Shown: one piece after another, positions 1 through 25,349 of the stretch
Layout: each line of letters begins with the position of its first letter
Position numbering within the stretch: the first letter of the stretch is position 1
Source of the DNA: a virus
Length of the DNA: 64,000 nucleotides
Reading direction: 5' to 3' (one strand)
UHGV virus genome: UHGV-0248979
Program-made: the position numbers and the translations under genes
Notes under the pieces: model-generated
Told to the model about the DNA's origin: nothing
What the model saw: the letters and a program-made list of their open reading frames with translations, nothing else
Database searches by the model: none

Positions 1-165
1 ATAGACGCGGACGGGGAAGAAAACCAACTTAAAAATGTACCAATAACTACAAAAGCAGGGTGTAACCAACTAGCCTCCTCAATAGGTGTAGAAGCTTACG
101 AGTACATTCGTCGTGTAGTGATGGCAGAGCGTAATAGAGGGGCGGAAAATGAGTCAAGAAAATAG
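1..165 (+). CDS. 3' end of an upstream ORF truncated by the window edge
   Basis: Frame 1 is open from position 1 to a TAG stop at 163-165, ending 17 nt into the next gene; no start within the window. Confidence 0.3.
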   Translation: MDADGEENQLKNVPITTKAGCNQLASSIGVEAYEYIRRVVMAERNRGAENESRK

Positions 166-1471
166 TTATCCTAAACAACTGACTTATCAAATTGTTACAA
201 ATTTATCGTGTAACTTGGACTGTGAGTATTGTTACGAACGTAAGTATCCCCGTAATAACAAAGCGGCGGATATTGTTGATTTTCTACACGCTTGTTTTGA
301 ACGAGATAAAGATCTGACAAACATCGAGGTCGTTATCGATATCATCGGTGGTGAGCCGTTTATTCAGCCTAAACTATTAAAGGCGGCATTTGAAACCGCA
401 GAAGAGTTATGCGAAAAACATAATCGGCCGTTTATGTTTAGCATCTCTACTAACGGAACGTTGTTAGATAGACCTTTGAATAGAGAAATTATTGAACGTT
501 GGAAAGACAGGCTGTCTATCGGCGTGTCTATTGATGGATTGCCCGAATCGCACGATAAGTACCGGATTTTTACAACAACTCGTGAAGGATCTTACGAGGC
601 CGCTGTGCGGGGCTATAACTACTTAAAAGAAGTCGGTATTGCAGAACTTGGTGTAAAAGCGACCTTTACGTTGGAAACGTTACCGTTCTATGCTGCTGGA
701 ATGAAATCATTAATTGATATTACTGGCGGCGGAACTATTTCTGGCAACGTAACCTTCGAAGACATTATGCCACGGAGCATGGCTACTTCAATCGCATTGC
801 AGATGATGGACGTGGTAGATTATTGGGTTGAGAAGGGCTTACACACCAACCCACGTAACACTTTGTCGCACATCATTCCAGACGGGTTAGATTTTGATAC
901 TATCTGGGAACCAAACTGGCGTGATCAGTTATTGTATAACGATACTGTACGTTTGAATCCAGAACGTTTACGCCCGTTCTGCGGTACGTTAACACACATG
1001 ACCTGCTTAGGATTTGATCGTAAGATCTTCGGTTGTAACCGTTTCATGTCAACCGTAACATCACGTTCTGCCGTATTTGAATTAGTTGGGCGGGAATTCG
1101 TTAGCTTAGATGACGGGAAATTGCTGGAAGAGATTCAGACGCAATACACCAACTATCCTGAAACCTGTTTAGGTTGTCCAATGAAGCACGCTTGTGGTAG
1201 TTGTGCGGCTGCATCTTACGAGAATGGAGAAGGGACGCTAGAAGATCGCAAAGCTTATCACGCTGAACGCCGTCAATGCGGCTGGACAACTGCAAAGTTG
1301 ATGGTTGCGGAATATTGGAAACAGAAAATGGGCACGACGTCAGTGAAAGATTTTCATGACAATAGCATGTGTTATTGCCCTCGTTGCGTACGTGAACGTA
1401 CCCAGAAAGAAAAACAATTGAGAGAAACCAAAGATGAAGCCAATTCTGATCCACAATATTACGAAGCGTAA
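149..1471 (+). CDS. radical SAM enzyme with C-terminal SPASM/twitch-like cysteine cluster
   Basis: CxxxCxxC motif (CNLDCEYC) near the N-terminus; Cys-rich C-terminal segment (CLGCPMKHACGSCAA...CGW...CYCPRC); 440 aa. Confidence 0.8.
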   Translation: MSQENSYPKQLTYQIVTNLSCNLDCEYCYERKYPRNNKAADIVDFLHACFERDKDLTNIEVVIDIIGGEPFIQPKLLKAAFETAEELCEKHNRPFMFSISTNGTLLDRPLNREIIERWKDRLSIGVSIDGLPESHDKYRIFTTTREGSYEAAVRGYNYLKEVGIAELGVKATFTLETLPFYAAGMKSLIDITGGGTISGNVTFEDIMPRSMATSIALQMMDVVDYWVEKGLHTNPRNTLSHIIPDGLDFDTIWEPNWRDQLLYNDTVRLNPERLRPFCGTLTHMTCLGFDRKIFGCNRFMSTVTSRSAVFELVGREFVSLDDGKLLEEIQTQYTNYPETCLGCPMKHACGSCAAASYENGEGTLEDRKAYHAERRQCGWTTAKLMVAEYWKQKMGTTSVKDFHDNSMCYCPRCVRERTQKEKQLRETKDEANSDPQYYEA

Positions 1472-2006
1472 ATTCCGTTTTCTGGAAAAATTTTTAGAAA
1501 CTACAAAATTGTTTGGTTGTTATGTGCAAATTAATGGTGAAGACTTCACTGACGATGTTAAACGATTATTAATTCGCCACGGAGTAACTGTAGTTATCCC
1601 AATGTATTGCACAGAACTCACCGATCTTTCAGTTACAGAAATTGAGAAACGGAATCCTGGGTTTGAACAACGTGTACTAGATTTTCCACGACATAAAATC
1701 GTGCTATTACGCAGGGCCTTGCAAGAACCAAGCGTCGAATCTATAACAGCATTAGGATTATCCTTTCCGGGCATCACGATTTACGCAATGCGGAATCCAG
1801 ATTCTACTATCGATGGATTTTACGAGGAACGTGAAGCGTTCCATGATTTAATTTATCCTGAACTTACCGATGAAGAACGACAAGGATTACACATCGATTG
1901 GGATTCTGGTTTTGATAACAAATTTCGCCAAATCGATTTTGAATTGTTAATTGAGCTAGGTTTAGTTAAAGGAGAAGATGAATGTCTGTTATTGACGAAG
2001 GCTTAA
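1434..2006 (+). CDS. hypothetical protein, co-oriented with the radical SAM gene
   Basis: 190-aa ORF overlapping the upstream gene end by about 38 nt; no recognisable motif. Confidence 0.5.
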   Translation: MKPILIHNITKRKFRFLEKFLETTKLFGCYVQINGEDFTDDVKRLLIRHGVTVVIPMYCTELTDLSVTEIEKRNPGFEQRVLDFPRHKIVLLRRALQEPSVESITALGLSFPGITIYAMRNPDSTIDGFYEEREAFHDLIYPELTDEERQGLHIDWDSGFDNKFRQIDFELLIELGLVKGEDECLLLTKA

Positions 2007-2656
2007 CGAAAGAGGAAATACGTCAACGTTATTTCTCACGAGGGCTTCCAATCGATCGCCACGGTAATTACATGGAACGAATTGGCAACGAGGATCGTGG
2101 TCGTGCGGGTTTTTGTGCGCTTCTACACTACAAATTAATCGATGGGTTGGAAGATAAGGCCGCAATCGAACAGATGCGTAGTTACGATATGTCGGAGATT
2201 GAGGCTAATTTCACTCTACAGAAAGCGAAAGAATTTATCGCTGATGTTCTTGAGATTGATTTAGAAGAAATACGAAACAACGTTCGATCAACTGCACGTT
2301 ATATCTATCAAGATGTTCAGAAAATCATGATAGAGATGGAACGTCTTTATGAGGAACAGCGTTATGCGCCCATTAAGTTAAATGGGTGTTATTTCCAAGC
2401 AGACGACGCATCGCGACAGATGTTAAGTCAGTATATTCAGTCTGAAACCGCCCCGGAATATTGGTTGGATACGTCGAATGCACGAATAGAACCGTTCACG
2501 TTGGAACAATGCAAAGAACTGATGGCAGCGATTGTGAAACGTGATCAGAAATTGCATGGGCAGAAAACCGAGCAGAAAAAAGAGCTTCGGCTTTTAGCCG
2601 AGCGGCGTGATTATGATACCATCCGAGCGTACGCTTTGGAAATGGGGATAAAATAA
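1982..2656 (+). CDS. hypothetical protein, last gene of the plus-strand module
   Basis: 224-aa ORF overlapping the previous gene; followed directly by a hairpin terminator. Confidence 0.55.
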   Translation: MSVIDEGLTKEEIRQRYFSRGLPIDRHGNYMERIGNEDRGRAGFCALLHYKLIDGLEDKAAIEQMRSYDMSEIEANFTLQKAKEFIADVLEIDLEEIRNNVRSTARYIYQDVQKIMIEMERLYEEQRYAPIKLNGCYFQADDASRQMLSQYIQSETAPEYWLDTSNARIEPFTLEQCKELMAAIVKRDQKLHGQKTEQKKELRLLAERRDYDTIRAYALEMGIK

Positions 2657-2658
2657 AA

Positions 2659-2706
2659 AAGTACCTACCTCCGTAAAGGAGGTAGGTAAACTTATTATTT
2701 TTTGTT
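2659..2706 (+). terminator. rho-independent terminator
   Basis: Perfect hairpin tacctacctcc-gtaaa-ggaggtaggta followed by a T-run, preceded by an A-run (could act in both directions). Confidence 0.7.
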
Positions 2707-2725
2707 GTAGTAGTTGACTTAGCGA

Positions 2726-3256
2726 TTAAGCAGTAAAGCCGTCAAGTTCACCGTCGGTGGTGGCCAGGTCAATACGATTATCAACAACTTTCGGCGTAAT
2801 TACGAAAGTTGCCATTACACCCGGTTTATAACGGAGGTTCTTTTCAGTAACGGTACAAGTTACCGTACGCAGAGTGACGCTATCGTGTTCGTCTTTCTGG
2901 TCTTCGGTGGTGTACTCAACGTCACCAGGTGCGATAGAGTCGTCAGGTTTTACTTTATTGATGTAAAACTGTAATCGGTCGCGTAGTTCGTTTTCTCCAG
3001 TCCAGAGAGCCAAATCGTCCGTTACCTCAATGCGTCCGACAACGCCAGGTTCCAGACGATCGTAATGCAGTTCGATTGCGCCTTTAAAATTTTCAGACTC
3101 TGTACGTGCGGTCATGGTAACTTTGGTATTTTTATCGCCCTTTTCAAGAGCGACAGGTTGACCAAAAGTTACCTCTTTATCAGTGACCTGATGCGGTAGC
3201 TCTGTGTTAGCAGCATTATAAAGCGCAACTAACATCATCTGGTTAGTAGCTGCCAT
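2726..3256 (-). CDS. paralog family member P1 (putative tail-associated protein); C-terminus ELDGFTA
   Basis: 176 aa; N-terminal pattern shared with five other ORFs in the window; C-terminus shared with 3324..3890. Confidence 0.6.
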   Translation of the reverse strand: MAATNQMMLVALYNAANTELPHQVTDKEVTFGQPVALEKGDKNTKVTMTARTESENFKGAIELHYDRLEPGVVGRIEVTDDLALWTGENELRDRLQFYINKVKPDDSIAPGDVEYTTEDQKDEHDSVTLRTVTCTVTEKNLRYKPGVMATFVITPKVVDNRIDLATTDGELDGFTA

Positions 3257-3307
3257 TATCTTAAATCCTTAAAATGAAAGTTAAAGAAATATCGGGGGAG
3301 GTTACCA

Positions 3308-3316
3308 CCCCCCCCC
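3308..3316 (-). repeat. homopolymeric G9 tract (C9 on the plus strand), intergenic between P2 and P1
   Basis: Nine consecutive C read directly at 3308-3316. Confidence 0.9.
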
Positions 3317-3323
3317 GAATCAA

Positions 3324-3890
3324 TTACTCTTTAGGCGCTGGTGCGGTGAAGCCATCCAGTTCACCTTCCAAACCGCTCAGTGCTACTTTCTCAATAGCCG
3401 GAGGAGTAACTTTATACGTTGCAACAGTACCTGGCAGGAACTTCAGGTGTCCAGTCACAACAGTTACTACGTAAATGGTTTTGCCTTCTTCTTCACGGGA
3501 AATAGTTTGCAGGTCGTTTTCACCGAACTCGTCATCGGTGTACCCCTTCTCAACCATGGCTGCGTTAACTTTTGCCAGGATTTTCGTTGGTGAATCGAAA
3601 TCGGTAGTAGGTGCAGTTACTTCAACTTCACCAACGATGTCGCAGGAAAGACGAGTATAGTGGAATTCTTTCTCGCCTTTGAAGTTCTGGCTTTCTGCCT
3701 TGGCGGTCAGAGTAATTTTAGTGTTGCGGCCAGCTTCTCCGGTGAAGTCAGCGACAGCACTAAAGTCAACATCAGCTACGGTGAGAGCGGAGCTCAGAGA
3801 GCTGTTTTTAGTGTTAATAAGTTCGATAAGCTGCTGTTGAAAAGTTTTAGCCATTGTTTTTACCTCGTAAGTAGTATGGGTGGTTTGCAT
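3324..3890 (-). CDS. paralog family member P2 (putative tail-associated protein)
   Basis: 188 aa; tandem paralog of P1, same ELDGFTA C-terminal motif plus a PAPKE extension. Confidence 0.6.
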   Translation of the reverse strand: MQTTHTTYEVKTMAKTFQQQLIELINTKNSSLSSALTVADVDFSAVADFTGEAGRNTKITLTAKAESQNFKGEKEFHYTRLSCDIVGEVEVTAPTTDFDSPTKILAKVNAAMVEKGYTDDEFGENDLQTISREEEGKTIYVVTVVTGHLKFLPGTVATYKVTPPAIEKVALSGLEGELDGFTAPAPKE

Positions 3891-3985
3891 AGTATTGTTC
3901 GGATTATAGAAGTGGTGTTAATAGTTATGACAGGCGGCAGAAGGGTTGCTTGTAAAATTAATTAACTTTAACTTTTTTATAAAAG

Positions 3986-4477
3986 GTGAAAAGTATGATA
4001 AAACGTTTTCTTATTGTTATGGTTGGTGTTTTTTCATTGGCAGGATGTGCCTTACAACCGAATGGTGACGGCCAATTCTCGACTGTGCCGGTGGAGCCAC
4101 ATGATATGGTTATTTACACCTGTATGGGTGCAGAGCAAGATTTTGCAAATTACAAACCTGTCGTCAGCTCGACTAATATAATGTTAGGGTCAGTAACTGT
4201 ACTCGATACTGGTGCTAACTGGGTAGCCACTTGGCCAAACGGCAAGATTGAGTCGCCGCAACTTTATAAAGATTTATTAGGTAAAGTTAATGGGAATATT
4301 GATCCTATCACAGGACAACGTTACTATCGTGTAAATGGCTTACTTTCAAAAACGCCAACGTTTGCGTATTCTACTTTAGAATATAAAACGGGTGATGGTA
4401 AAGGCATTACTTTCTTCCACTGTAAAGAAGGTGTAGCGTCTGACACTGGAACAATGCTCCATCCTGCGGAACAATAA
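3986..4477 (+). CDS. putative lipoprotein (candidate superinfection-exclusion or moron gene)
   Basis: Signal peptide with lipobox (FSLAG-C); likely true start is the ATG near 3995 with an AAAGGTG RBS; isolated plus-strand gene with its own terminator. Confidence 0.6.
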   Translation: MKSMIKRFLIVMVGVFSLAGCALQPNGDGQFSTVPVEPHDMVIYTCMGAEQDFANYKPVVSSTNIMLGSVTVLDTGANWVATWPNGKIESPQLYKDLLGKVNGNIDPITGQRYYRVNGLLSKTPTFAYSTLEYKTGDGKGITFFHCKEGVASDTGTMLHPAEQ

Positions 4478-4520
4478 AAACTACCCTACTCCTTATCGGG
4501 AGTAGGGTATATTCATTTTA
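4478..4520 (+). terminator. rho-independent terminator between convergent genes
   Basis: Hairpin ctaccctactcc-ttatcg-ggagtagggta followed by a T-rich stretch. Confidence 0.6.
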
Positions 4521-4592
4521 ACCGCCAAATCGTGCGTAAAACGCATTCTGAGCGTCTTTATACAAAATAAGGTATAAACACCTTAGAAATAG

Positions 4593-5108
4593 TTAAATCT
4601 CGACTAAGGCGCTCCAATCGATTGGTTTTTGCTTAACAACTTTCACAGTACCACGATTTGGTGACCAGAAAGTAATGTTAGGCTGGTTACGAACGTCAAT
4701 GTGCAACCAACTGATGTCACATTCAATAAAGTGAATGAACGGAAACTCGTCAGGGTTAGCAGCGATATAGTCGTGAACCTGTTTTACGGTGCTATCCAAC
4801 AACGTTGCATCAATGGCGTTACCGAATTTGTGTTGACTTCCTGAATCGGCGTAAAGCTGCAACGCACGTTGTTTATAACTACCACCCTTAGGCTTTTCTT
4901 GATTAATAAAGAAATCTAAGGTTCTTAGTCCGCGCTGTTGTGCGGCAGTTGAGTTAATCACCATTCTGCCGAAACGATTACGAATCTGTTGTAGGGAGAT
5001 CATTAACAACGGATTCATAAACCGAATTGCGGAATCGCCGTATTTGGCAATATAGGACTGTGGTACTAACTCTCTGAGTTTAAAGTTACTCGGATTTGGA
5101 TGAAACAT
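4593..5108 (-). CDS. peptidase M15-like cell-wall hydrolase (DUF882/Peptidase_M15_3-like)
   Basis: Motif SQHKFGNAIDA (SxHxxGxAxD) and a later His, typical of zinc D,D-carboxypeptidase-like M15 domains. Confidence 0.6.
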   Translation of the reverse strand: MFHPNPSNFKLRELVPQSYIAKYGDSAIRFMNPLLMISLQQIRNRFGRMVINSTAAQQRGLRTLDFFINQEKPKGGSYKQRALQLYADSGSQHKFGNAIDATLLDSTVKQVHDYIAANPDEFPFIHFIECDISWLHIDVRNQPNITFWSPNRGTVKVVKQKPIDWSALVEI

Positions 5109-5760
5109 CTTCCCTCCCAGACAGAAAAGCCCGTTTGATGTTCAGGTATTTGACATTAACGGGACAATCTGTGGTGATATCAATACGTTCGTGGTCAGGG
5201 ATTGCAGGTTCCTTAAACTCGCGAACGAATAAATAGTTTCGATTGTAATCTAACGTACGAAACGCGTTAGTGCTGTAGGATGGCTTTGCATTAGGATCTA
5301 CGTAGGCATCCCAGCCGAATTCAACAACGGCCTTATAAAATGTTTGGCAGATATAAGGCGAGATTTCCAACGACTGCATAATACGCAGGAAAGTTAAGTC
5401 AGAGAACTCTTTATCGATGAAACGCGAAACGTTACCACCCGGTGTCATGGGATAGCTACGCTCCGTGTTGCATTTTTGATAGAGTAAGTCGTGAATACAG
5501 GCCGCAGGTGCCCACGGTCCGTCAGGATGGAAAATTCCCTGGAGGTGATCAGGAATTGACGCTAAATCGGTAACGAACCCTTTCGGTGCTGTTAACCACA
5601 GTTGCGTGTCAGGCAATACACCCGTTAAATAAACCGCACGGTCTAAGTGTACGTGGTCGTGATAAATCTCGCGTAACGTAAACGGATAATGGTAATCCTC
5701 CGTTAATACAAACCACTTATTGTCTAAACGTTTATATTGAAGCTTCTCCATTACCCACAC
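5086..5760 (-). CDS. DUF1353-like phage protein
   Basis: Motif TDLASIP...HD..Y resembling the DUF1353 signature; 224 aa. Confidence 0.5.
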   Translation of the reverse strand: MWVMEKLQYKRLDNKWFVLTEDYHYPFTLREIYHDHVHLDRAVYLTGVLPDTQLWLTAPKGFVTDLASIPDHLQGIFHPDGPWAPAACIHDLLYQKCNTERSYPMTPGGNVSRFIDKEFSDLTFLRIMQSLEISPYICQTFYKAVVEFGWDAYVDPNAKPSYSTNAFRTLDYNRNYLFVREFKEPAIPDHERIDITTDCPVNVKYLNIKRAFLSGREDVSSKSE

Positions 5761-5867
5761 CTTCCCTTATAGAAACCAGAAAAATTCGTACCCACGCTTT
5801 TCGTCTTTACGTTTCCGTCCAGACGTTAACGCTTTCCACAATAGTGCTAAGAGTTTAGCAAACCAAT

Positions 5868-6458
5868 TCATTTTACTAACCCCGCCTTCACTACATAATC
5901 CGGCATTTCCCTGTACACGCGTCCGTACCAGCCGTAAGCGAATTTTTCATTCTTCTTACGCTTTTCGGAGATTTCCGTGTAGTAGGTTACCTGATGTGAG
6001 ATTAACGCAAAGATTAAGATGCCTAATCCCTCGCCTTTACGGTAATTCAGATAAGCATTCAGAGCACCTAGTGTTTTAGGTCCCATACCACCATCGGTGT
6101 CAATATCTGCGTAAAGTTTCCCTTCGTTATTTAAAACGTTGAGAATACGTTGTAACGATTTCACACAGTTAACACGGCCAGAGTTAATACCAAAATCAAA
6201 CATCCTGTCGGCGAGTATCGGCGAGATAGCGAAAATCTCATCGAGTTTAAGTTTCTTCCACCAACCACGATCGTAAATATCAAACGCTTGCGCACGGGTC
6301 AGATCTTTCATTCTTCCTTTGTACCCGTATTCGCGTGCAGTTGTCAGTGTTACCCCGTGACAGGTTTCCCCACCTTTATCGTCAGGGTCATTGACGTACC
6401 CACCCTCTAAATCTGTTTTTGATTCAATAATACCTTCTTTAGTCCAACGTTCGGCCAT
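5868..6458 (-). CDS. endolysin, glycoside hydrolase family 108-like with peptidoglycan-binding domain
   Basis: N-terminal EGGYVNDPDDKGGETCHGVT signature typical of GH108 lysozymes; C-terminal region consistent with a PG-binding module. Confidence 0.75.
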   Translation of the reverse strand: MAERWTKEGIIESKTDLEGGYVNDPDDKGGETCHGVTLTTAREYGYKGRMKDLTRAQAFDIYDRGWWKKLKLDEIFAISPILADRMFDFGINSGRVNCVKSLQRILNVLNNEGKLYADIDTDGGMGPKTLGALNAYLNYRKGEGLGILIFALISHQVTYYTEISEKRKKNEKFAYGWYGRVYREMPDYVVKAGLVK

Positions 6459-6491
6459 TTTCTTTAACTCCTCTTTTTACACAAAAAAAGA

Positions 6492-6520
6492 AAAGAGGGT
6501 GGGATTACCCCACCCTGTAG
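6492..6520 (-). terminator. rho-independent terminator
   Basis: Hairpin agggtggg-attacc-ccaccct with a T-run on the minus strand. Confidence 0.6.
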
Positions 6521-6997
6521 TTATTTCTTCTTAGCGCGCGATGGCTTAGCTGGCGGTGTCTCGACAGACGGTTTACGCGCAACACGCACTGTAAAACCAC
6601 CGACCCAGGTTAGACACTCGGGGCGGAAGAAAATACCGTGCTCGATTGCACTGCCGTCTAGCGGCAACGCACCAACCTGCTCTACCCACACATCGTCTTC
6701 GGTAAGGGTTAAGCCATACTGCTCGTTAATTACAGGCAGCAAGTCCGCAGTCGTGGTTGCTGTCTCAACTAACAGTTTCGGCAATACGTTGTGGAAATAC
6801 AAACCTGCATCAATGCGGTTATACTGGAACGTTTGCTTATTAACATAACCGAGATTTTTAACCGGCACAACCGTAATTTCGGTGTTGTACGTACCGGTAC
6901 TTACGACGGGCTCACCCAATGTGACTTTGGCGGTGTCGAGCTCGGCGTCTGGGTTAGCCTTTTTAATAAGGTCGAAGATAGTTTCTTGACTGGTCAT
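6521..6997 (-). CDS. paralog family member P3 (putative tail-associated protein)
   Basis: 158 aa; shares the N-terminal pattern of the family. Confidence 0.55.
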   Translation of the reverse strand: MTSQETIFDLIKKANPDAELDTAKVTLGEPVVSTGTYNTEITVVPVKNLGYVNKQTFQYNRIDAGLYFHNVLPKLLVETATTTADLLPVINEQYGLTLTEDDVWVEQVGALPLDGSAIEHGIFFRPECLTWVGGFTVRVARKPSVETPPAKPSRAKKK

Positions 6998-7010
6998 TAC
7001 TGTAATCCTC

Positions 7011-7859
7011 TTAATCTAAGAATCCCGGTAAGACCGAATTAGTCTTGGCTAATTCAATCTTCGACTTCGGACGATCGGTTCCGTTAAAGTGAATTAACAG
7101 TTTACCGGTCAGGTTAGAACACATACCGCTTAGGGCGAGTACCAGCACACGCGTGTACTTCGCATTTGCGCCTTCGAAACCTGCGGTAGGGCCATCGTAG
7201 ATAACCTTAGCACCGAACAAGTTATTAGCAGCGTTCTTAGGTACGCTTACCCATTTCTCATCAACAACGTTAGTCAGTTTAGTAGCTAACTCTACTAAGT
7301 CTACGGTGCCGTTGATGGTAATTGGATCAAGGTAATCTTTTTCTGCGGTGAAGTCAATTGGGTAAGAATAAACCGCAGCGTTACCTTTCTTAGTGGACGG
7401 ATACTCTACCAGGTTTTCTAATTGAGTAACAGGTAGCAATTTAGCCAGATCAATAGGATCGCGTAGCGTAAGCGTCACTTCGCCACACCACTCGTAAGAT
7501 TTCTCGTTAGCGGTAAGTTGGTGGGTTTTACCTTCAACTTTCGCATCAACGATATCCGATGGCAGAATATTTAAATCGTATTTTGCGTTGATTGCGTTAA
7601 GCAAATCTGAGGCGGTTACAACACCGTCGTTACCGAATACCAACTCACCTGTTAGGTATTCGGGCAAATTACGACGATGGTAAGTCACCGTTAAAGTAGT
7701 AGACTCATCGCCTTTGAGTTTAGAAGTCAGAACCACCTGGGTATCAACCCCAGTACCAGTAGGTTCGCCGATATCAACATCACTGAAGGTCAATGGCGGA
7801 ACAATATTGTTTTCAGTGTTGATGAGTTTTAGCAGTTTCTGTTTTGACGTAAGAGACAT
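7011..7859 (-). CDS. paralog family member P4 (putative tail-associated protein)
   Basis: 282 aa; N-terminus LLKLINTENN...FSDVDIGEP matches the family pattern. Confidence 0.6.
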   Translation of the reverse strand: MSLTSKQKLLKLINTENNIVPPLTFSDVDIGEPTGTGVDTQVVLTSKLKGDESTTLTVTYHRRNLPEYLTGELVFGNDGVVTASDLLNAINAKYDLNILPSDIVDAKVEGKTHQLTANEKSYEWCGEVTLTLRDPIDLAKLLPVTQLENLVEYPSTKKGNAAVYSYPIDFTAEKDYLDPITINGTVDLVELATKLTNVVDEKWVSVPKNAANNLFGAKVIYDGPTAGFEGANAKYTRVLVLALSGMCSNLTGKLLIHFNGTDRPKSKIELAKTNSVLPGFLD

Positions 7860-7989
7860 CGCGTTAACTCACAATAAGTAAAAAAGGTTTAAGAGGTCGT
7901 TTTACATCCCTCAGCCAGCATAGGAATAGTCGAGTAGAAGGTAAGTAAAGCAGCGTCAAAATAACAAAAAAAGAAAAGGGAAAGAAAAT

Positions 7990-8022
7990 TAATTCCGCTA
8001 TAGACCGAAGCCTATAGCGGAG
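7990..8022 (-). terminator. rho-independent terminator
   Basis: Hairpin ccgctatag-accgaagc-ctatagcgg flanked by an A/T run. Confidence 0.55.
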
Positions 8023-8027
8023 TAAGG

Positions 8028-8459
8028 TTAGCGAACGTTGTGTGCTAAGTACATCAGCGTACGAGTGTCGATGTCACGAGAAGTTTGTGACATCTGACTC
8101 AGTAACTTGTTGGCAGTAGGGTCATTGTAAACACGACTTAACCATTCGTCAACCATTTCTGGTACAGTGTCGACAAGAAGCGGATAGTTAAGATTTTCCA
8201 GTGTGTATTCAACGAATTCGTGCATCAGATTCTGGTCACGATGCATAGTGTCACCTAACTCACCTACAGGGTACTCTTCGCGAGGACGTTTACCCCAGCT
8301 ACAGATGTGCATGTAGTTAGTATTCACAATTTCCTGATATTCTTCTAACTTAACTAAATCGAAGTCAGTATTTGGACGACAGAAACCTGCTAGAACGCCC
8401 AAAGCAATCGGATTGTTACGAATGTAGTTACGGATTTCATCATTTAATACGAAAAACAT
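8028..8459 (-). CDS. hypothetical protein, paralog of 9320..9748
   Basis: 143 aa; shared N-terminal pattern LN-E-R-YIR--P----VLA; RBS CCTAAAGGAG. Confidence 0.6.
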   Translation of the reverse strand: MFFVLNDEIRNYIRNNPIALGVLAGFCRPNTDFDLVKLEEYQEIVNTNYMHICSWGKRPREEYPVGELGDTMHRDQNLMHEFVEYTLENLNYPLLVDTVPEMVDEWLSRVYNDPTANKLLSQMSQTSRDIDTRTLMYLAHNVR

Positions 8460-8535
8460 TTTAATACTCCTTTAGGTAAATACAATAATAGAGGGGTGGT
8501 AATCCACCCCTTGGTTGAATTTAGAATGTCGTTAA

Positions 8536-9297
8536 TTAACGACGTTTTTGACAATTAGGACAATCGCAATCTTTGTTGTAAATATTAAAAAGCTTTTCGA
8601 GAACCAAGGCACGTGCTTTTTCGATATAAGAATCCGTTGAAACAATTCGCAAAAAGTTCGTTAATGATTTGAAAACCTCAACATCGTTGTCGATCAAAAC
8701 GGTGAGTGTTTCACCTTTGTAAACGGATTGACGAATTTTCTCCTTGTGTTCGTGCACAGCCACACGCATGAGTTCATCAGCGGTATCTTTTCCGATACCG
8801 TGAATCGAAATAAGTCGAACGGCATCGTTATCGATCAGCTCAGCGATAGAACTAATTTCTTCCATGAGATTACGATCGTCTTTCTTCAATCGAACGACGA
8901 TCTTATCGTTATCCGAATAAATGCCTAAATCGTCGGGATAGAGGGTCTCTAACGCTTCTTTAATTTCCTTAATCTTCTTACCTTCGTACCAGAGGACGTG
9001 TGGTTCGTCTTTCTGCTGTTCTTCTACTTTCGGTTGTTCAGTCTCGGTCGTTTCCACCCGAGTGTTCGTGGTACCTTCTGCTGAGTTGAGTAACTCACCG
9101 ATTTCTTTCGCAATAGTGTCGCAAAGATAATCGTTGCAGTGAGTCCAGTAGAATACGATGCTTTCATCGTTGACCTGCTCTACACGGAAATGTACACCTT
9201 TATCCAGGAATATGCGATAAAGTTGATCGAGTAACTGTGCTTCAGGAACCGGACGGATTTCAGTTTTAACGAGCGGGGTAATTTCGATATTAAACAT
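8536..9297 (-). CDS. hypothetical protein with helix-hairpin-helix-like motif
   Basis: 253 aa; segment RLISIHGIGKDTADELM resembles an HhH DNA-binding motif; C-terminal CDCPNC. Confidence 0.5.
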   Translation of the reverse strand: MFNIEITPLVKTEIRPVPEAQLLDQLYRIFLDKGVHFRVEQVNDESIVFYWTHCNDYLCDTIAKEIGELLNSAEGTTNTRVETTETEQPKVEEQQKDEPHVLWYEGKKIKEIKEALETLYPDDLGIYSDNDKIVVRLKKDDRNLMEEISSIAELIDNDAVRLISIHGIGKDTADELMRVAVHEHKEKIRQSVYKGETLTVLIDNDVEVFKSLTNFLRIVSTDSYIEKARALVLEKLFNIYNKDCDCPNCQKRR

Positions 9298-11086: not shown

Positions 11087-11106
11087 CTAGGTAATATATA
11101 TCTGAA
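11080..11106 (-). promoter_or_regulatory. conserved phage promoter element, copy 1
   Basis: Minus-strand TTCAGATATATATTACCTAGGTGAGAG followed by an 8-bp-stem hairpin, about 45-70 nt upstream of a start codon. Confidence 0.55.
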
Positions 11107-15323: not shown

Positions 15324-15350
15324 CTCTCTCCTAGGTAATATATATCTGAG
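15324..15350 (-). promoter_or_regulatory. conserved phage promoter element, copy 2
   Basis: Minus-strand CTCAGATATATATTACCTAGGAGAGAG plus a downstream hairpin. Confidence 0.55.
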
Positions 15351-18134: not shown

Positions 18135-18642
18135 TTAGCTAATTCTCAAATCACGCAGTGCGCCTGTCGATTTCATCACGTTTTGGAACGCAGCGCTGAT
18201 GTTATTAGTCCAGTAATAATGCTGTCCGTTAATAACCTGCTGATAGGCCAGCGCGCAGGTGTTACCACCTAAATTTACGGTAATGTTAGAGGCTCTGCCT
18301 CCTTGTAAGTAAACCGCTAAAGTAGGCTTTGCGTTGGCAACTATCGTCGTTAACTGTAACTCAATACCTACTAAAGTTCCCACCCCGCAGTTACCCGCGT
18401 TTTGAATGGTTCCCTGATTTTTCTGGTTTAACGGCCAGCTTGGTCCTACTGCGCCCCATTTCTTACCTAAAGAATCGCTATATGCAGCGGTTGCAATTTT
18501 ACAGCCCATAGATCGTCCCACCATTTGACTCATCATAAAAGGTCTACCCAATCCTAATTTACTACCAGCAGCGCTCATCCATTGTTCGCCCGTTTCGTTC
18601 TTGGCCGAAGAACCGACCCACGAACCGGTTACCCCCCCCCAT
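18135..18642 (-). CDS. adhesin-like tail fibre-associated protein, paralog B; 5' end put out of frame by a G9 tract
   Basis: ORF track gives 18135..18578. The same frame is open upstream (…GSWVGSSAKNETGEQW) and matches paralog A's N-terminus; an ATG with AGGAG RBS at 18642-18640 is +1 out of frame across the G9 run. Confidence 0.6.
18632..18640 (-). repeat. homopolymeric G9 tract overlapping the start codon of adhesin-like paralog B
   Basis: Nine consecutive C at 18632-18640; the minus strand reads AT-GGGGGGGGG-TAACC. Confidence 0.9.
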
Positions 18643-18654
18643 CGCGATCTCCTG

Positions 18655-18885
18655 TTAAGATTTTCTACATGTTATTGAATCGAAAGCACCACGCCCAACC
18701 CAACGCCAATTATAATGATGATCAGCTTTATAAAGTGTGTATCTGCCCTGCTTTTTTACGTCGAAAATATTGATCGTAGTCTCTTCATTACCCAGCTTAG
18801 CTGTGCCGTAACATACAGGTTCGGGTAGTTGTTGACATCCACTTACTGTAAGCAATGCGAAACCCAGTAAAACTTTTCTTAACAT
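18655..18885 (-). CDS. small lipoprotein between the two adhesin-like genes (candidate receptor-masking protein)
   Basis: 76 aa; signal peptide with lipobox (LLTVSG-C); mature part about 59 aa with further Cys. Confidence 0.6.
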   Translation of the reverse strand: MLRKVLLGFALLTVSGCQQLPEPVCYGTAKLGNEETTINIFDVKKQGRYTLYKADHHYNWRWVGRGAFDSITCRKS

Positions 18886-18895
18886 CTTTCTGTCC

Positions 18896-19441
18896 TTAGA
18901 CTACACTTATTGAAATTGTTGCACCGTTCTGATTAAATAACCAGTTGGTTGCCGTCTTAGCCTCATAGCGCCGGACGCCGTTACTGTAGGAGTACGGTAG
19001 AAAAGTAATCTTCGTTCCGTTAAACGAAAGCGTAATATTCTGATTTGGTCCATTGGTTAGGGCCATGTAGATAATACCAGTATTTTGTACTTGGCTAAGA
19101 TGTGTGACGCTACAACCCAAGATCGAACCTGACACCGAACCGGCCGCATTTTGTGTTTGCACACGATTCGATACTGTAGAACCAGCACCCGTTGTTGTAG
19201 AGTTGTTCGAATACCCCCCATACGTATTTGTAATAGGAACCCACTGCGTGTTCGTAGCCTGCACCAAAACAACATAGGTTGATCGGCCTACAACGAGTTT
19301 AAGATCCTCTACGCTACGCCCGACCATCTGCGACATGTTAAATGGCGTGCTCAGTTTAAGCTTATTACCTGCCACACTCATCCACTCCTGACCGGTTACT
19401 GCCTTTGCTGAGCTTCCAACCCAGCCGGATGCTACCCCCAT
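18896..19441 (-). CDS. adhesin-like tail fibre-associated protein, paralog A
   Basis: 181 aa, Gly/Ser/Thr/Asn-rich; ATG with GGAGGA RBS just downstream of the fibre gene terminator. Confidence 0.65.
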   Translation of the reverse strand: MGVASGWVGSSAKAVTGQEWMSVAGNKLKLSTPFNMSQMVGRSVEDLKLVVGRSTYVVLVQATNTQWVPITNTYGGYSNNSTTTGAGSTVSNRVQTQNAAGSVSGSILGCSVTHLSQVQNTGIIYMALTNGPNQNITLSFNGTKITFLPYSYSNGVRRYEAKTATNWLFNQNGATISISVV

Positions 19442-19482: not shown

Positions 19483-22400
19483 TTAATTCCCCTTGAGTTC
19501 TTTAAGCTCTTGGCGAAGAGTTTTCATGCCTTCTACTAACAACGCAATAACACCATTGTAATTTAGACGTAAACGTTTTTCGCCTGAAATGGCATCGTCG
19601 TCCTCGGACACAAGTTCAGGTAACGCTTCTAATGCGTCCTGAGCAATTAGACCTACAGAAGTCTGCCAACCGTCATCAGGATGCTGAATTTCGTACAAAT
19701 AACCGGTTAGTAACTCTAACCGATCCAAAGCTTTATCCAGCTTCACCAGATTACGTTTGTTACGACGGTCAGAACGAATCTGTACGTCGTTAAACGAACC
19801 GTTACCGTTGCCAGTAACGTTATGTCCAAAGTTTACTTGGCCGTTAGAATTATTAAAAGACAACGGGCGTAATCCGTTCCAGGAACCCGCTGCGGCTTGT
19901 CCGGCGTCGGTTACTAAGAAATAGGTATTGGCACCGTCGTTACGTAAAATAAAACCGTAGGTACCGTAAGCGATTCGAAAATCAGGGTATTTAGTGGCCA
20001 ATTTACCATTAACGGTTAAATCACCGCCTACAGTACCGCCCCCTGACGGTAACGCGCCCACTTCCGCAGCAGTTGGCTTGTTTCTCGTATTGTAAGCACG
20101 ACGCCAGCCTGGTGAGTATCCATCGCCGTTAAATACGTAGATAAACTCCGCATTAGTGAGTGCTCCGCCGACGCTCGTCGTTGTGGCGGTCGTTATACGG
20201 ATCGTGTAGTTGTTTGTGCTGTTGCCGTTACTAATGACTTCTATAACGGCCCCAGCTAACGGAATGACACCACAACCCGTCTCGCTGTGAGGTATGGACG
20301 CACTGGCGGCATAAGCCCACGCACAGCGAGCAACCCACGATCTTGTGGTAAATGCGCCGTTATTTTTCAATAACGTCACTAGCTGTGCTGTAGTTATTGC
20401 ACCGCCATTAGCGCCAGTTTCTAACCAACCACTAGGTGATGCCGGACAACCTATTTCGGCTGGCCCTAACGCTATATTTCTAGTGCCATCAAACGCAATA
20501 CCATTGATGGTTCTTGCGGTTTGCAACTTTGTTGCCGTGGCTGCGTTTCCGGTGGTCGACTGATTCCCTGTTTGGTTTACTCCAGGTAAACTGATGTCTT
20601 TAGTACCATCAAAAGCTACGCCACCTATATTTCGAGCAGTCTGTAGCTTAGTCGCTGTCGCCGCATTCCCCGTAGTCGATTGGTTACCGGTTTGGTTTAC
20701 ACCAGGAAGATTAACGTCTTTTGTCCCATCGAACACCACACCGCCGATCTTACGTGCGGTTTGTAACTTAGTAGCGGTCGCTGCATTACCTGTCGTATTC
20801 TGGTTGCCTTGCTGGTTAACGCCCGGTAAATTGATATCACCTGTACCGTCAAAGCTAACGCCTCCGATCCTGCGAGCGGTTTTCAGTTTCGTCGCGGTAG
20901 CGGCGTTGCCGGTAGTATCCTGATTACCTGTGGCATTTACACCAGGAATGCTATCACGGGCAGTATAAACTTGTGCCCAATCTGACCACGGCGCATCAGC
21001 AGTATCACGTCGACTACGAATATAAACGGGTGCGTGCGCACCGCTCGTCCCCGACCATCCGATTAACAGTTCCCCTTCGCCTAGCGCAGCAGAACCGCCC
21101 AAATGCAGTAAGTTACCATAAGCGGTTGGATAACCGTTATTGTAAACTTCGTACATCTGAATACCGGGTGTACCTTTGTTTGATCCAGTCAGTGCAGTAA
21201 CACGTCCACGTCCTACCAACGTGTTGATATTGATGTCTCTAGACCCATCAAATTTCACACCGTTGATGTTTCGAGCCGTTTGTAATTTGGTTGCGGTTCC
21301 CGCGTTCCCAGAGGTGTTTTGATTACCCTGTTGGTTTACACCAGGGAGGCTAATGTCTCCGCTACCGTCGAAACTTACACCGCCGATTAAACGGGCTGTT
21401 TTCAGTTTCGTTGCCGTAGCAGCATTGCCTGTTAACTCACCTGATAACCCTTTTGCAAAGGTCTGTTTTTCTGCCCACGTATGCGCTGCATTCAATACGG
21501 GCATCTGGCGGCTAGTAATAGTACGTTTACCCTTTTCACCAGCGACGCGAACAGCAAAGAAGCGATAGTTAGCAGTAGACACTGTACCACGCCAGACCAA
21601 CATACTCCGGCCAGTACCGGTGTCCTCCGACGCCCCTACAAGAATAGTAACCAAGTTACCGTCGATAACACCCCAATCCATTCCCGCAGGAATGTTTTTC
21701 ATGGTATTCAATGGTGTACTTATCATCTGGCCAGGAACGAAGTCGAAGGTTTGCCAGTCTAACGGATCTACCTTAGCAGCAACCCCACCGATCCCTAAAG
21801 CCAACGGGAGTGAATAGGATGTGAAAATCTCTCGCCATTCGCTCCAGGCATTTCCTGTACGAATTCGTTGGAACTTGCGACCTTTCGAAGTTGCGCCTGT
21901 ACCGTATGTGGTATAATTTTGTTCAACACCTGAACCGTCTAAGCGTAAGGTAACTTCGCAAACGCCTAGCAAGGTTGCGCCAGCAGAGTCTGTTAACGGA
22001 CCGTCTGTAGCCTCGCCGGTAACACTAAAGCGACCCGGTTTAGTTAAGTCGTTAAAGCTACCCTTATAGTAGGCACCGTCTACCTGATACCCAACCTGAA
22101 TCCAATCTTCCCACTGCGGATTAGACGAATCCCAAGTCGCAGTCAAACCACGGACATACATCGTACCACGACGAGTGGTGTAACGTTGTAAACGTCCATA
22201 AAGACCGCCTTCCATGACTTCTAATACGCCTTGCGCATTACCGCCCTCTTCAGGATAATGTCTGTCGAACACCGCTAACGAACTGGACGAGTTACGCCAG
22301 TTACCCATGTGCTCAGCGCCGCCTAAGGAGTTCAGATCGATCGATGTAGATAACGGGCGTACACCTGTAGTTACCATTCTCCACGGTGACCACGGGCCAT

Positions 22401-24777: not shown

Positions 24778-25152
24778 TCAGACCGTTAGTTCTCCACATA
24801 ACTCAACATCGATACCGAACGTCATTCCCACTTCTTGAAGTTTGTTCGCCAGTAGGTGACGATGACAAAACTTACCTGCAGGACAATAACACATCAAAAC
24901 CAGGTCTTCGTGTCTGAGTAACGACACTAAAACTTCGGCATCGGCATCTAACAGTCGTTCGAGTTTGTACAAATACTTTATCGTGTATTCACGCTCAGCG
25001 GCAGCGTCTTGGGCAGAATTTTTATACGCCATTAGGAAATCCCAGTCGGGGGCGAGTTCCTTTCGCCCTGACTTCACGGTGATATCCACCGCGTGAAATC
25101 CTTTCTGCTTAGCTAACCGCCACTTAGCGAGTTGTAGCGTCCAGATACGCAT
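24778..25152 (-). CDS. hypothetical protein with conserved Cys/His motif
   Basis: 124 aa; motif MCYCPAGKFCHRH. Confidence 0.55.
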   Translation of the reverse strand: MRIWTLQLAKWRLAKQKGFHAVDITVKSGRKELAPDWDFLMAYKNSAQDAAAEREYTIKYLYKLERLLDADAEVLVSLLRHEDLVLMCYCPAGKFCHRHLLANKLQEVGMTFGIDVELCGELTV

Positions 25153-25349
25153 TAGGAACGAGTCTGCGTTTCAGCCATCAACGCACAGCTTCTTACAGCC
25201 TGTGCATGAAGCTCTGTACCTGGAGTATAATCCTTTATACAGTCCTGATACAACTCACGTTTCGTTTCTAAAGTACGGTTGTCTAACTCAGCACTTGCGA
25301 GTGCCCCTGCGATAAGGATAAATACTAGAATCGGTAACCAAATTTTCAT
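25152..25349 (-). CDS. small membrane-anchored protein, tandem paralog of 25346..25558
   Basis: 65 aa; N-terminal hydrophobic helix; conserved Cys pair. Confidence 0.5.
   Translation of the reverse strand: MKIWLPILVFILIAGALASAELDNRTLETKRELYQDCIKDYTPGTELHAQAVRSCALMAETQTRS

What the first reader, a model, noticed from the sequence alone, without database searches (positions are those of the whole stretch)
3986..4477. Isolated plus-strand lipoprotein gene beside the lysis enzymes
A 163-aa lipoprotein gene is inserted on the opposite strand between minus-strand blocks, with its own terminator and AT-rich upstream region. It is not Pro-rich and has no C-terminal membrane segment, so a spanin role is unlikely; exclusion or outer-membrane modification is more plausible.
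Basis: inference. Interest (0 to 1): 0.4.

Follow-up and report, generated by a model that had tools for sequence, protein, structure and literature searches.

The report
Conserved jumbo-phage outer-membrane lipoprotein gene
This is a real, well-conserved gene for a small fat-anchored protein that a giant Salmonella/Erwinia-type phage sends to the host's outer membrane; it is not part of the virus particle and almost certainly not a lysis "spanin". It most plausibly masks the cell envelope against further phage attack, but its function has never been tested.

Summary
Window 3995-4477 (+) encodes a 160-aa lipoprotein precursor (lipobox LAGC, Ala at +2), with its own hairpin terminator and an AT-rich leader.

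The window is a SPN3US-like (phiKZ-related) jumbo phage, and the gene is the homologue of SPN3US gp159 (PHROG 9559, function unknown). The family is tiny and phage-only. It is under purifying selection (dN/dS 0.04-0.13). The lipobox Cys and two further Cys are invariant. AlphaFold gives a confident all-beta domain with no significant match in PDB.

- **Not a spanin.** No membrane partner gene lies beside it in more than 20 loci, the mature domain is folded and not Pro-rich, and related genomes carry a separate, typical spanin-like gene pair.
- **Not a virion protein.** gp159 is missing from the SPN3US virion mass-spectrometry tables, whereas both of its neighbours are listed.
- **The "lysis enzyme" neighbourhood is lineage-specific.** The constant neighbours are DUF7941 virion proteins and, in distant lineages, tail-fibre genes.
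- **Probably late-expressed.** A TATGAC motif (phiKZ late-promoter type) followed by a 5' hairpin precedes the gene in 17/17 loci.

Best guess (~0.35) is a receptor-masking or exclusion lipoprotein. The window also holds a true Cor-family exclusion lipoprotein at 18655-18885.

The parts
3926..3931 (+). TATGAC motif, a candidate phiKZ-type non-virion RNA polymerase (late-class) promoter, with the predicted transcription start at G3929
   Evidence: TATGAC lies 38-71 nt upstream of the lipoprotein start in 17/17 otherwise divergent loci. The phiKZ late promoter is 5'-TATG-3' with +1 at the G (PMC4666361; PMC12809450). TATG is 2.7-fold enriched in upstream gaps of the window. Promoter activity is inferred, not shown.
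3930..3953 (+). Predicted stem-loop at the very 5' end of the lipoprotein mRNA
   Evidence: -11.4 kcal/mol, z = -5.08, 0/200 shuffles as good. All 11 lineage representatives fold into a hairpin starting at +1 to +4, with different stem sequences. The individual energies are often weak, and RNAalifold could not align the loops.
3983..3988 (+).
   Evidence: Read from the sequence. There is a 6-nt spacer to ATG 3995. The GTG is out of frame in the L017-L019 relatives.
3995..4477 (+). Lipoprotein precursor gene, 160 aa (homologue of SPN3US gp159, PHROG 9559)
   Evidence: dN/dS is 0.04-0.13. The AlphaFold model has pLDDT 83 and the core is all-beta.
3995..4048 (+). Signal peptide (17 aa) plus the lipobox Cys codon (4046-4048); the lipobox is L-A-G-C and residue +2 is Ala
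   Evidence: L15 and C18 are invariant in 28 sequences. Lipid modification was not tested.
4482..4509 (.). Bidirectional hairpin terminator shared with the convergent M15-like gene
3888..3891 (-). TATG motif upstream of the divergent DUF7941-like gene, conserved in four compared phages
   Evidence: One search shows the alignment block GGTGCATA. It lies 34 nt upstream of the probable true start at 3854.
3324..3854 (-). Divergent neighbour: a short DUF7941 / 'paralog family B' protein, homologue of SPN3US gp160 (abundant head protein)
   Evidence: Pfam DUF7941 and PHROG 4862. gp160 is present at more than 300 copies per capsid (PMC5694885). It is adjacent to the lipoprotein gene in nearly all SPN3US-like loci.
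4593..5108 (-). Convergent neighbour: a putative LAS/M15-type peptidoglycan peptidase (SxHxxGxAxD motif), homologue of SPN3US gp158
   Evidence: PHROG 894, E = 6e-28. The motif is read from the sequence. gp158 is a low-abundance non-head virion protein. There is no Pfam or PDB sequence hit.
5086..5751 (-). DUF1353 protein (homologue of SPN3US gp157)
   Evidence: Pfam DUF1353 and PHROG 1158. gp157 appears in the SPN3US virion tables.
5868..6458 (-). GH108 plus PG_binding_3 muramidase, the presumptive endolysin (homologue of SPN3US gp156)
   Evidence: It is not listed in the SPN3US virion tables.

Best explanation
**What the gene product is**
- The gene encodes a phage protein exported through Sec, lipid-modified at Cys18 and cleaved by signal peptidase II.
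- Because residue +2 is Ala, the Lol pathway should deliver it to the inner leaflet of the host outer membrane.
- There, a linker of about 10-20 residues would hold a compact 11-strand beta domain in the periplasm just under the outer membrane. The domain is probably closed by a Cys43-Cys143 disulfide.

**How it is expressed**
- It is a separate transcription unit with a TATG-type promoter, so it is most likely transcribed by the phage's non-virion RNA polymerase at the same time as the virion genes.
- It has a 5' stem-loop leader and its own terminator.
- The protein is not packaged into virions.

**Most likely job (inferred, about 0.35)**
- It alters or masks an outer-membrane component from the periplasmic side, in the manner of T5 Llp or the Cor proteins.
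- The infected cell and its debris would then stop taking up or inactivating phage. This amounts to superinfection exclusion and/or protection of progeny.

**What is shown and what is inferred**
- Shown: the gene is real; its signals are conserved; it has lipoprotein features; it is absent from the virion proteome of the SPN3US homologue; it has no spanin partner.
- Inferred: outer-membrane location, the disulfide, late timing, and the masking function.
For: **Lipoprotein features and sorting**
- Lipobox, n-region and h-region are present.
- 28/28 homologues have a lipobox and none has Asp at +2.
- Invariant residues in 28 sequences are L15, C18, C43, D71, G73, R109, Y111, S126, G133, G135 and C143.

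**Fold**
- The model has pLDDT 83 and pTM 0.71; residues 28-145 are all-beta.
- The weak best matches are small lipoprotein or lipocalin beta-barrels (NHBA 6cuj TM 0.40, HpuA, lipocalins).

**Selection**
- dN/dS is 0.04-0.13.
- The lipoprotein gene and the adjacent DUF7941 gene form a divergence hot spot: 62-72% DNA identity against 82-99% in the flanks, window versus L017. This fits a host-interface gene.

**Non-virion**
- gp159 is absent from the SPN3US virion tables, while gp157, gp158 and gp160 are listed.

**Genomic company**
- In all SPN3US-like lineages the gene sits next to DUF7941 virion-protein genes.
- In the 35%-identity lineage it lies on the same strand immediately after a long tail-fibre gene (L028-L030; Caudo_TAP chaperone only in L012). 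It lies immediately before a DUF7941-TIM-barrel (NCTSP) protein.
- Known receptor-masking lipoprotein genes sit beside receptor-binding genes. The window's own Cor homologue lies between two Gp38-like adhesin genes.

**Expression**
- TATGAC is present in 17/17 loci and is followed by a hairpin.
- The phiKZ late-promoter definition comes from PMC4666361.
Against: **No functional data**
- None exist for any family member. Literature searches found nothing on gp159.

**No detected similarity to known exclusion or inhibitor proteins**
- There is no sequence or fold similarity to Cor, Llp or any other exclusion protein. The PHROG, Pfam, NCBIfam and PADLOC searches gave only PHROG 9559, and Foldseek gave nothing significant.

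**Features that fit exclusion poorly**
- The mature protein (143 aa) is twice the size of Llp or Cor.
- Classic exclusion genes such as T5 llp and T4 imm/sp are early, whereas the promoter motif here suggests middle or late expression.
- In SPN3US the DUF7941 neighbours were assigned to the head, not the tail (PMC5694885). This weakens the argument from proximity to a receptor-binding protein in this lineage.
- The family is conserved across phages of Salmonella, Erwinia, Escherichia and Proteus. A receptor-specific blocker would need a receptor shared by all of them.
- The window already has a Cor homologue.
Confidence: 0.35

Rival explanations
1. A lysis-related outer-membrane factor. It would be either a non-canonical outer-membrane spanin-like component or a regulator of the last lysis step, acting together with the nearby GH108 endolysin and the 34-aa cationic peptide gene.
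For: - The gene lies within 1-4 genes of the GH108 endolysin in all SPN3US-like lineages.
- The likely late TATG promoter fits lysis timing.
- In the distant lineage a 189-aa two-membrane-segment (holin-like) gene lies 1-3 genes downstream.
- Most phage lipoproteins in Gram-negative hosts are outer-membrane spanins (general knowledge of the Rz1 and PseT.2 families).
Against: - No adjacent or embedded membrane partner exists in any locus.
- The mature part is a folded, acidic, 143-aa beta domain with an internal disulfide pattern. It is not a short Pro-rich tether.
- A separate adjacent or overlapping pair (membrane-anchored protein with a Pro-rich C-terminal region, plus a lipoprotein) exists in SPN3US and in five other genomes. 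At least four of these also carry this family.
- The order relative to GH108 is rearranged between lineages.
Confidence: 0.15
2. A periplasmic inhibitor ('immunity' protein) of peptidoglycan hydrolases, in the way T4 Spackle blocks the gp5 tail lysozyme or MliC/PliG block lysozymes. It would neutralise the virion-borne M15-like or GH108 enzymes of superinfecting particles, or stop premature wall damage.
For: - The gene converges on the M15-like gene (gp158 homologue, a virion protein) and shares its terminator.
- It would be tethered exactly where a tail tip emerges.
- It is a small beta-barrel lipoprotein, like MliC in general shape.
Against: - Asesino, ChrisDB and Wellington-type phages keep the lipoprotein but have no detectable M15-like homologue near it (no hit in the ±6 kb flanks searched).
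- There is no Pfam hit to MliC, PliG, Ivy, LprI or Spackle families.
- No inhibitor structure appears among the top 50 PDB matches of the good model.
Confidence: 0.15
3. Some other host-envelope modulator unrelated to phage entry or lysis. Examples are a Bor-like fitness factor, an interference with Lol, Bam or Lpt traffic, or a ligand-binding barrel.
For: - The weak fold neighbours are LolA-type and lipocalin or neisserial lipoprotein barrels.
- There is no direct evidence for any entry or lysis role.
Against: - All fold matches are insignificant (E > 0.02, TM <= 0.41).
- The family is confined to virulent jumbo-type phages, where host-fitness morons are not expected.
Confidence: 0.15
4. A virion component or a spurious ORF.
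For: Both neighbours are virion proteins in SPN3US.
Against: - gp159 is absent from the SPN3US virion tables.
- The export signal is conserved.
- dN/dS is 0.04-0.13 and invariant residues hold across 29-95% identity.
Confidence: 0.02

Closest known systems
SPN3US gp159 (SPN3US_0159 / YP_009153453) and PHROG 9559; Erwinia phage Asesino gp174 and Wellington gp172 (named 'Lipoprotein' in UniProt)
   Same: They are true homologues: 48-58% identity over more than 90% of the length, with the same lipobox, the same three Cys and the same locus.
   Different: None has an assigned function. The window's protein is 89-95% identical only to unannotated metagenome or assembly sequences.
T5 Llp and Cor (phi80/N15/T1; PHROG 1119) receptor-masking exclusion lipoproteins
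   Same: They are phage-encoded outer-membrane lipoproteins with conserved Cys in the mature part. Their genes travel with virion-surface or fibre genes, and they are not virion components.
   Different: No sequence or fold similarity was detected, and this protein is about twice the size. It is probably late rather than early (T5 llp). The window has a separate real Cor homologue at 18655-18885. Function is untested.
Outer-membrane spanin subunits (lambda Rz1, T4 PseT.2) and the T1 gp11 single-chain spanin
   Same: An N-terminal lipobox and outer-membrane sorting; the gene lies near an endolysin in some lineages.
   Different: There is no partner gene, no C-terminal membrane segment and no Pro-rich tether; the domain is folded. 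A better spanin-like pair exists elsewhere in related genomes.
T4 Spackle and the MliC/PliC/PliG lysozyme inhibitors
   Same: A small periplasmic or outer-membrane-tethered beta-rich protein encoded beside a wall-degrading enzyme.
   Different: No family or fold match was found. The adjacency to the hydrolase genes is not conserved.
Eight-stranded barrels of neisserial lipoproteins (NHBA C-terminal domain, HpuA, TbpB) and lipocalins
   Same: They are the best, though weak, structural neighbours of the confident model (6cuj E = 0.02, TM 0.40).
   Different: The matches are below significance, so the fold may be new or very diverged.

Membership tests
Bacterial lipoprotein precursor (signal peptidase II substrate) | Basic n-region, hydrophobic h-region, and lipobox [LVI][ASTVI][GAS]C within the first ~35 residues | tested here: met
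   The sequence is MIKRFLIVMVGVFSLAG|C. The lipobox is found in 28/28 homologues, and L15 and C18 are invariant.
Bacterial lipoprotein precursor (signal peptidase II substrate) | Actual diacylglyceryl modification and globomycin-sensitive cleavage | not testable with these tools
   This needs labelling or mass spectrometry.
Outer-membrane (Lol-sorted) lipoprotein | No Lol-avoidance residue (Asp) at +2 | tested here: met
   The +2 residue is Ala here. Across the family it is A, V, S, T, Q, K or M, never D. Localisation itself is inferred.
PHROG 9559 / SPN3US gp159 family | Full-length profile match | tested here: met
   E = 3.6e-65 over residues 2-152. tblastn found 55 phage records, all covering more than 80% of the query.
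Two-component spanin, outer-membrane subunit | Partner gene for an inner-membrane subunit (N-terminal membrane segment), adjacent, overlapping or embedding | tested here: not met
   Neighbours in the window and in more than 20 related loci lack membrane segments.
Two-component spanin, outer-membrane subunit | Short, largely unstructured, Pro-rich mature part | tested here: not met
   The mature part is 143 aa with 6.3% Pro and forms an all-beta domain with pLDDT above 90.
Single-chain spanin (T1 gp11 type) | Lipobox plus a C-terminal membrane segment | tested here: not met
   The maximum 19-aa hydropathy in the mature part is 1.07.
Cor / Llp exclusion lipoproteins | Sequence membership in the Cor (PHROG 1119) or Llp families | tested here: not met
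   Only PHROG 9559 is hit. The Cor profile instead hits the window's other lipoprotein, 18655-18885, at E = 1.3e-25.
Cor / Llp exclusion lipoproteins | Blocks the cognate outer-membrane receptor | not testable with these tools
   This needs adsorption and plating assays.
Lysozyme inhibitor families (MliC/PliC, PliG, Ivy, LprI) and T4 Spackle | Profile or fold match | tested here: not met
   Pfam scans of the protein and of all 28 family members gave nothing. None appears in the top 50 Foldseek PDB hits.
phiKZ-type late (non-virion RNA polymerase) transcription unit | 5'-TATG-3' at the transcription start | tested here: inconclusive
   TATGAC is conserved in 17/17 loci, but no transcript mapping is available. 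TATG is necessary but not sufficient in phiKZ.

The most novel reading that the evidence does not exclude
The gp159 family would be a previously unrecognised class of jumbo-phage envelope effector. It would be a late-made outer-membrane lipoprotein with a new beta-barrel fold. From the periplasmic side it would shut down a conserved enterobacterial outer-membrane entry route, or the tail's wall-piercing enzymes. This would give nucleus-forming phages an exclusion or progeny-protection system unrelated to Llp, Cor, Imm or Spackle.
Probability: 0.3. Interest if true: 0.5.

Novelty: new member of a known kind. Interest (0 to 1): 0.3.

Why it matters
The lysis and exclusion machinery of phiKZ/SPN3US-type giant phages is essentially unannotated; the SPN3US RefSeq record names no holin, spanin or exclusion gene.

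Three results here are useful for that problem:
- This conserved lipoprotein is pinned down as a non-virion, non-spanin envelope protein.
- A separate spanin-like gene pair is identified in related genomes.
- A real Cor homologue is identified in this window.

Together they give three concrete, cheap-to-test candidates for how these therapeutic-candidate phages deal with the host outer membrane.

The conserved TATGAC-plus-hairpin leader is also a clean test case for what, beyond TATG, defines a late promoter or transcript in this group.

Tried and rejected
**Searches that gave nothing**
- Megablast of 3000-6500 against phage genomes found only a 12% partial match, so the phage itself is not in that collection.
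- Pfam, NCBIfam and PADLOC scans of the protein and of the whole family gave no family.
- PDB sequence searches with the single sequence and with the profile gave only noise.
- Foldseek against PDB gave no hit at E < 0.02 with either model.
- The Foldseek viral library returned only family members plus weak lipoprotein-like hits.

**Technical limits**
- The first AlphaFold run, with 10 sequences, was poor (pLDDT 65.6). It was superseded by the 28-sequence run (pLDDT 83).
- RNAalifold on the leader hairpins failed because loop lengths differ, so the sequences were folded individually.

**Literature**
- Nothing on gp159 or on spanins/lipoproteins of SPN3US-like phages.
- The SPN3US infection-proteomics paper (Weintraub 2019) and the genome announcement are not held.

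**Rejected readings**
- Single-chain spanin: no C-terminal membrane segment.
- Outer-membrane spanin subunit: no partner gene and a folded domain.
- Virion protein: absent from the mass-spectrometry tables.
- Recently acquired moron: present in all lineages with ordinary GC content.
- GTG 3986 as the start codon: it is part of the Shine-Dalgarno sequence.

**Other checks**
- The match to a 4490-aa protein in the representative search is a cadherin-repeat protein, scored by summing 33 weak repeats. It was judged uninformative.
- The candidate spanin pair could not be located in the window's own lineage. It is outside the window, and the pattern scan did not reach that lineage.
Full report
**1. 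What is at the coordinates**

- The ORF listing gives a 163-aa ORF at 3986-4477 (+) starting at GTG.
- Reading the sequence, AAGGTG at 3983-3988 is a Shine-Dalgarno sequence. ATG 3995 follows after 6 nt.
- All homologues begin at the equivalent Met. In the 72%-identical relatives the GTG is out of frame. The gene is therefore 3995-4477, 160 aa.
- The N-terminus, MIKRFLIVMVGVFSLAG|CALQ, has two basic residues, a hydrophobic core, the lipobox L-A-G-C and Ala at +2.
- The mature chain is 143 aa, pI 5.2 and 6.3% Pro, with no second hydrophobic segment.
- A 12-bp hairpin (4482-4509; -20.4 kcal/mol, z = -5.95) with T-runs on both strands lies between this gene and the convergent minus-strand gene.
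- The leader is AT-rich (GC 0.25 at 3950-4049).

**2. Where the window comes from and what the family is**

- tblastn finds the protein in 55 phage genomes, all of them jumbo phages of 197-251 kb that infect Salmonella, Erwinia, Escherichia or Proteus. They include SPN3US, SPAsTU, Asesino, phiEaH2, ChrisDB and Wellington, at 46-58% identity.
- The SPN3US homologue is gp159 (SPN3US_0159).
- The family is PHROG 9559, function unknown (E = 3.6e-65).
- It is very small. A profile search of 1.8 billion representative proteins returns 14 hits, and a 5.8-billion-sequence search returns 28. All are from phage-sized contigs or phage records.
- The closest relatives (89-95% identity) are unannotated assembly or IMG/VR contigs of 220-225 kb.
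- Across 28 sequences (29-95% identity) the invariant residues are L15 and C18 of the lipobox, C43, D71, G73, R109, Y111, S126, G133, G135 and C143.
- dN/dS among close relatives is 0.04-0.13. This is a real gene under purifying selection.

**3. Structure**

- With 10 sequences AlphaFold gave a poor model (pLDDT 65.6).
- With 28 sequences it gave pLDDT 83 and pTM 0.71. Residues 28-145 form 11 beta strands, mostly above pLDDT 90.
- C43 lies in the second strand and C143 in the last, so a barrel-closing disulfide is likely.
- Foldseek finds no significant PDB match. The best hits are the NHBA C-terminal barrel (E = 0.02, TM 0.40), lipocalins, HpuA/TbpB and LolA.
- In the viral library only family members score well.
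- No Pfam, NCBIfam, PADLOC or PDB-sequence match exists for the protein or for any of the 28 members.

**4. The neighbourhood**

In the window the gene order is:

| Coordinates | Strand | Gene |
|---|---|---|
| 149-2656 | + | radical-SAM, a hypothetical gene, DUF4376 |
| 2726-3256, 3324-3854 | - | two short DUF7941 paralogues |
| 3995-4477 | + | the lipoprotein |
| 4593-5108 | - | M15/LAS-like peptidase (SxHxxGxAxD motif; PHROG 894) |
| 5086-5751 | - | DUF1353 |
| 5767-5871 | - | 34-aa ORF |
| 5868-6458 | - | GH108 plus PG_binding_3 muramidase |
| 6521-7859 | - | two more DUF7941 proteins |

The published SPN3US proteomics changes how the 'lysis enzymes' should be read:
- gp158 (M15-like) is a low-abundance virion protein that is not found in tailless particles (PMC5105663).
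- gp157 (DUF1353) and gp158 appear in the virion tables.
- gp160, the divergent DUF7941 neighbour, is an abundant head protein at more than 300 copies. It belongs to the 20-member 'paralog family B' (PMC5694885).
- The rows of those tables jump from 155 to 158 to 160, and in the other table 157 and 160 are present. gp156 (GH108) and gp159 (the lipoprotein) are therefore not virion components.

**5. Is the locus conserved?**

A neighbour analysis covered 16 IMG/VR loci plus the annotated genomes.
- In nearly all SPN3US-like lineages the lipoprotein gene stays next to a short DUF7941 gene, transcribed divergently from it.
- The M15-like gene is present only in the Seoulvirus-type lineage.
- In ChrisDB-type phages (L021-L023, L027) the GH108-DUF1353 pair lies on the other side and in the opposite orientation.
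- In a 35%-identity lineage from different phages (L010-L012, L028-L030) the gene is on the same strand as its neighbours.
  - It lies directly after a 1170-1480-aa tail fibre or tail protein. In L012 this is a Phage_tail_fib protein followed by a Caudo_TAP chaperone.
  - It lies before a DUF7941-TIM-barrel (NCTSP) protein.
- So the constant association is with virion-surface and fibre genes, not with wall-degrading enzymes.
- Between the window and its 72% relative (L017), the lipoprotein gene and the adjacent DUF7941 gene are a divergence hot spot. Their DNA identity is 62-72%, against 82-99% in the flanks.

**6. Expression signals**

- In the divergent intergenic region two blocks are conserved among four phages. 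Both contain TATG, one on each strand.
- Extending to 17 loci, TATGAC is present 38-71 nt upstream of the lipoprotein start in every one. The surrounding sequence is otherwise unalignable between lineages.
- In phiKZ the late promoter recognised by the non-virion RNA polymerase is 5'-TATG-3' with +1 at the G (PMC4666361; PMC12809450).
- TATG is 2.7-fold enriched in upstream gaps of this window.
- Immediately after the predicted +1, every lineage has an inverted repeat with a different sequence. In the window it is 3930-3953 (-11.4 kcal/mol, z = -5.08).
- All 11 lineage representatives fold into a hairpin starting at +1 to +4, although several are weak on their own.
- I infer a late-class, separately transcribed mRNA with a 5'-terminal stem-loop. 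No transcript data were available.

**7. Testing the spanin idea**

- The lipobox scan finds only two credible lipoproteins in the window: this one and 18655-18885.
- No gene within 5 kb of the target encodes a membrane-spanning protein. None does in the related loci either.
- A whole-genome scan of SPN3US found an unannotated adjacent pair.
  - 180017-180487 encodes an N-terminal membrane segment followed by a Pro-rich C-terminal region.
  - 180497-980976 is not a valid range; the second gene is 180497-180976. It encodes a lipoprotein (LLTGC|PG...).
- This pair is conserved, adjacent or overlapping by 4 nt, in five other jumbo-phage genomes. At least four of them also carry the gp159 family (the contigs match those).
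- That pair is the natural spanin candidate.
- It is not in the window and could not be traced in the window's own lineage. This argument therefore rests on relatives.

**8. Testing the exclusion idea**

- The second lipoprotein of the window (18655-18885, 76 aa) matches PHROG 1119, 'Cor superinfection exclusion protein', at E = 1.3e-25.
- It lies between two Gp38-like adhesin genes, next to a 1479-aa fibre gene.
- This shows the known pattern of an exclusion lipoprotein gene embedded among receptor-binding genes. It also shows that the target is not a Cor.
- The target's own association with fibre and virion-surface genes, its predicted periplasmic face-of-outer-membrane location, its faster divergence than the flanks and its non-virion status all fit an Llp/Cor-like mechanism.
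- Its size, its probable late timing, the head assignment of its SPN3US neighbours and its conservation across host genera all argue for caution.

**9. Verdict**

- Settled with good confidence:
  - The gene is real, conserved and separately transcribed.
  - It encodes an outer-membrane-type lipoprotein.
  - The protein is not a virion component and not a spanin.
  - The gene is not a recent insertion.
- Not settled: its function.
- My ranking is:
  - receptor or envelope masking (exclusion or progeny protection), about 0.35;
  - a lysis-related role, about 0.15;
  - a Spackle- or MliC-like hydrolase inhibitor, about 0.15;
  - another envelope modulator, about 0.15.
- The gene is a new member of an already catalogued but uncharacterised family (PHROG 9559). 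Interest is moderate to low (0.3).
- It would rise if the family proved to be a new exclusion or anti-hydrolase system of nucleus-forming jumbo phages.

Noticed in passing
window 18135-19441 (-), lipoprotein at 18655-18885: A 76-aa lipoprotein (MLRKVLLGFALLTVSGC...) matches PHROG 1119, 'Cor superinfection exclusion protein' (E = 1.3e-25). It sits between two Gp38-like tail-fibre adhesin genes (PHROG 1121, Pfam Gp38_N), downstream of a 1479-aa fibre gene (19483-23922). SPN3US has no counterpart in the lipobox scan, so this looks like an acquired adhesin-plus-exclusion cassette in a jumbo phage.
   Followed up: partly
window 5767-5871 (-): A 34-aa ORF (MNWFAKLLALLWKALTSGRKRKDEKRGYEFFWFL) overlaps the GH108 endolysin stop codon (ATGA). 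It encodes an amphipathic helix followed by a basic stretch. It is conserved in close relatives, and a similar 34-aa ORF is annotated in Asesino (gp172). It could be a membrane-active lysis peptide. It matches no PHROG.
   Followed up: partly
L008:30017-30976 (SPN3US 180017-180976); also L033-L038: An unannotated adjacent or overlapping gene pair: a 156-177-aa protein with an N-terminal membrane segment and a Pro-rich C-terminal region, followed by a 156-159-aa lipoprotein. It is conserved in six jumbo-phage genomes (PHROG 8719/8165, 'unknown'). It has the architecture of a two-component spanin.
   Followed up: partly
window 11091-11104, 15335-15348, 34409-34422, 61570-61583 (all - strand): There are four exact copies of CAGATATATATTAC, against 0.63 expected (0/100 shuffles reach 4). 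At least two lie in intergenic gaps just after terminator hairpins, within the longer shared motif TTTTTTCTCAGATATATATTAC(C/T)TAGG. They are candidates for a different (early-type, extended-consensus) promoter class of this phage.
   Followed up: partly
window 3855-3994 and the 17 related loci: The hairpin placed directly at the predicted +1 of the TATGAC start changes sequence between lineages but keeps its position. This may bear on the unexplained 'downstream element' requirement of phiKZ late promoters.
   Followed up: partly
window 25152-25349 and 25346-25558 (-); 41794-42372 (-): Two small overlapping genes (65 and 70 aa) each encode an N-terminal membrane segment and two Cys. Separately, a 192-aa protein has two membrane segments at residues 107-154 (PHROG 8722, unknown). 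Its architecture resembles the 188-189-aa two-segment protein found 1-3 genes downstream of the lipoprotein in the distant lineage. These are possible holin-type candidates.
   Followed up: no
window 1-9000 versus L015, L016, L017: There is sharp mosaicism. To the right of about 4500 the window is 96-100% identical to L015, but to the left it is only 52-94% identical. The short DUF7941 gene (3300-3900) drops to 56-72% identity against L016 and L017. This indicates recombination break-points around the lipoprotein and DUF7941 genes.
   Followed up: partly
proteins P0015 and P0020 (representative library): Two library proteins look like block-shuffled versions of SPN3US gp159. The same peptide blocks appear in permuted order, with the signal peptide at the C-terminus, and each is matched in 7 separate stretches. 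They are probably artefactual or decoy-like entries rather than biology.
   Followed up: no
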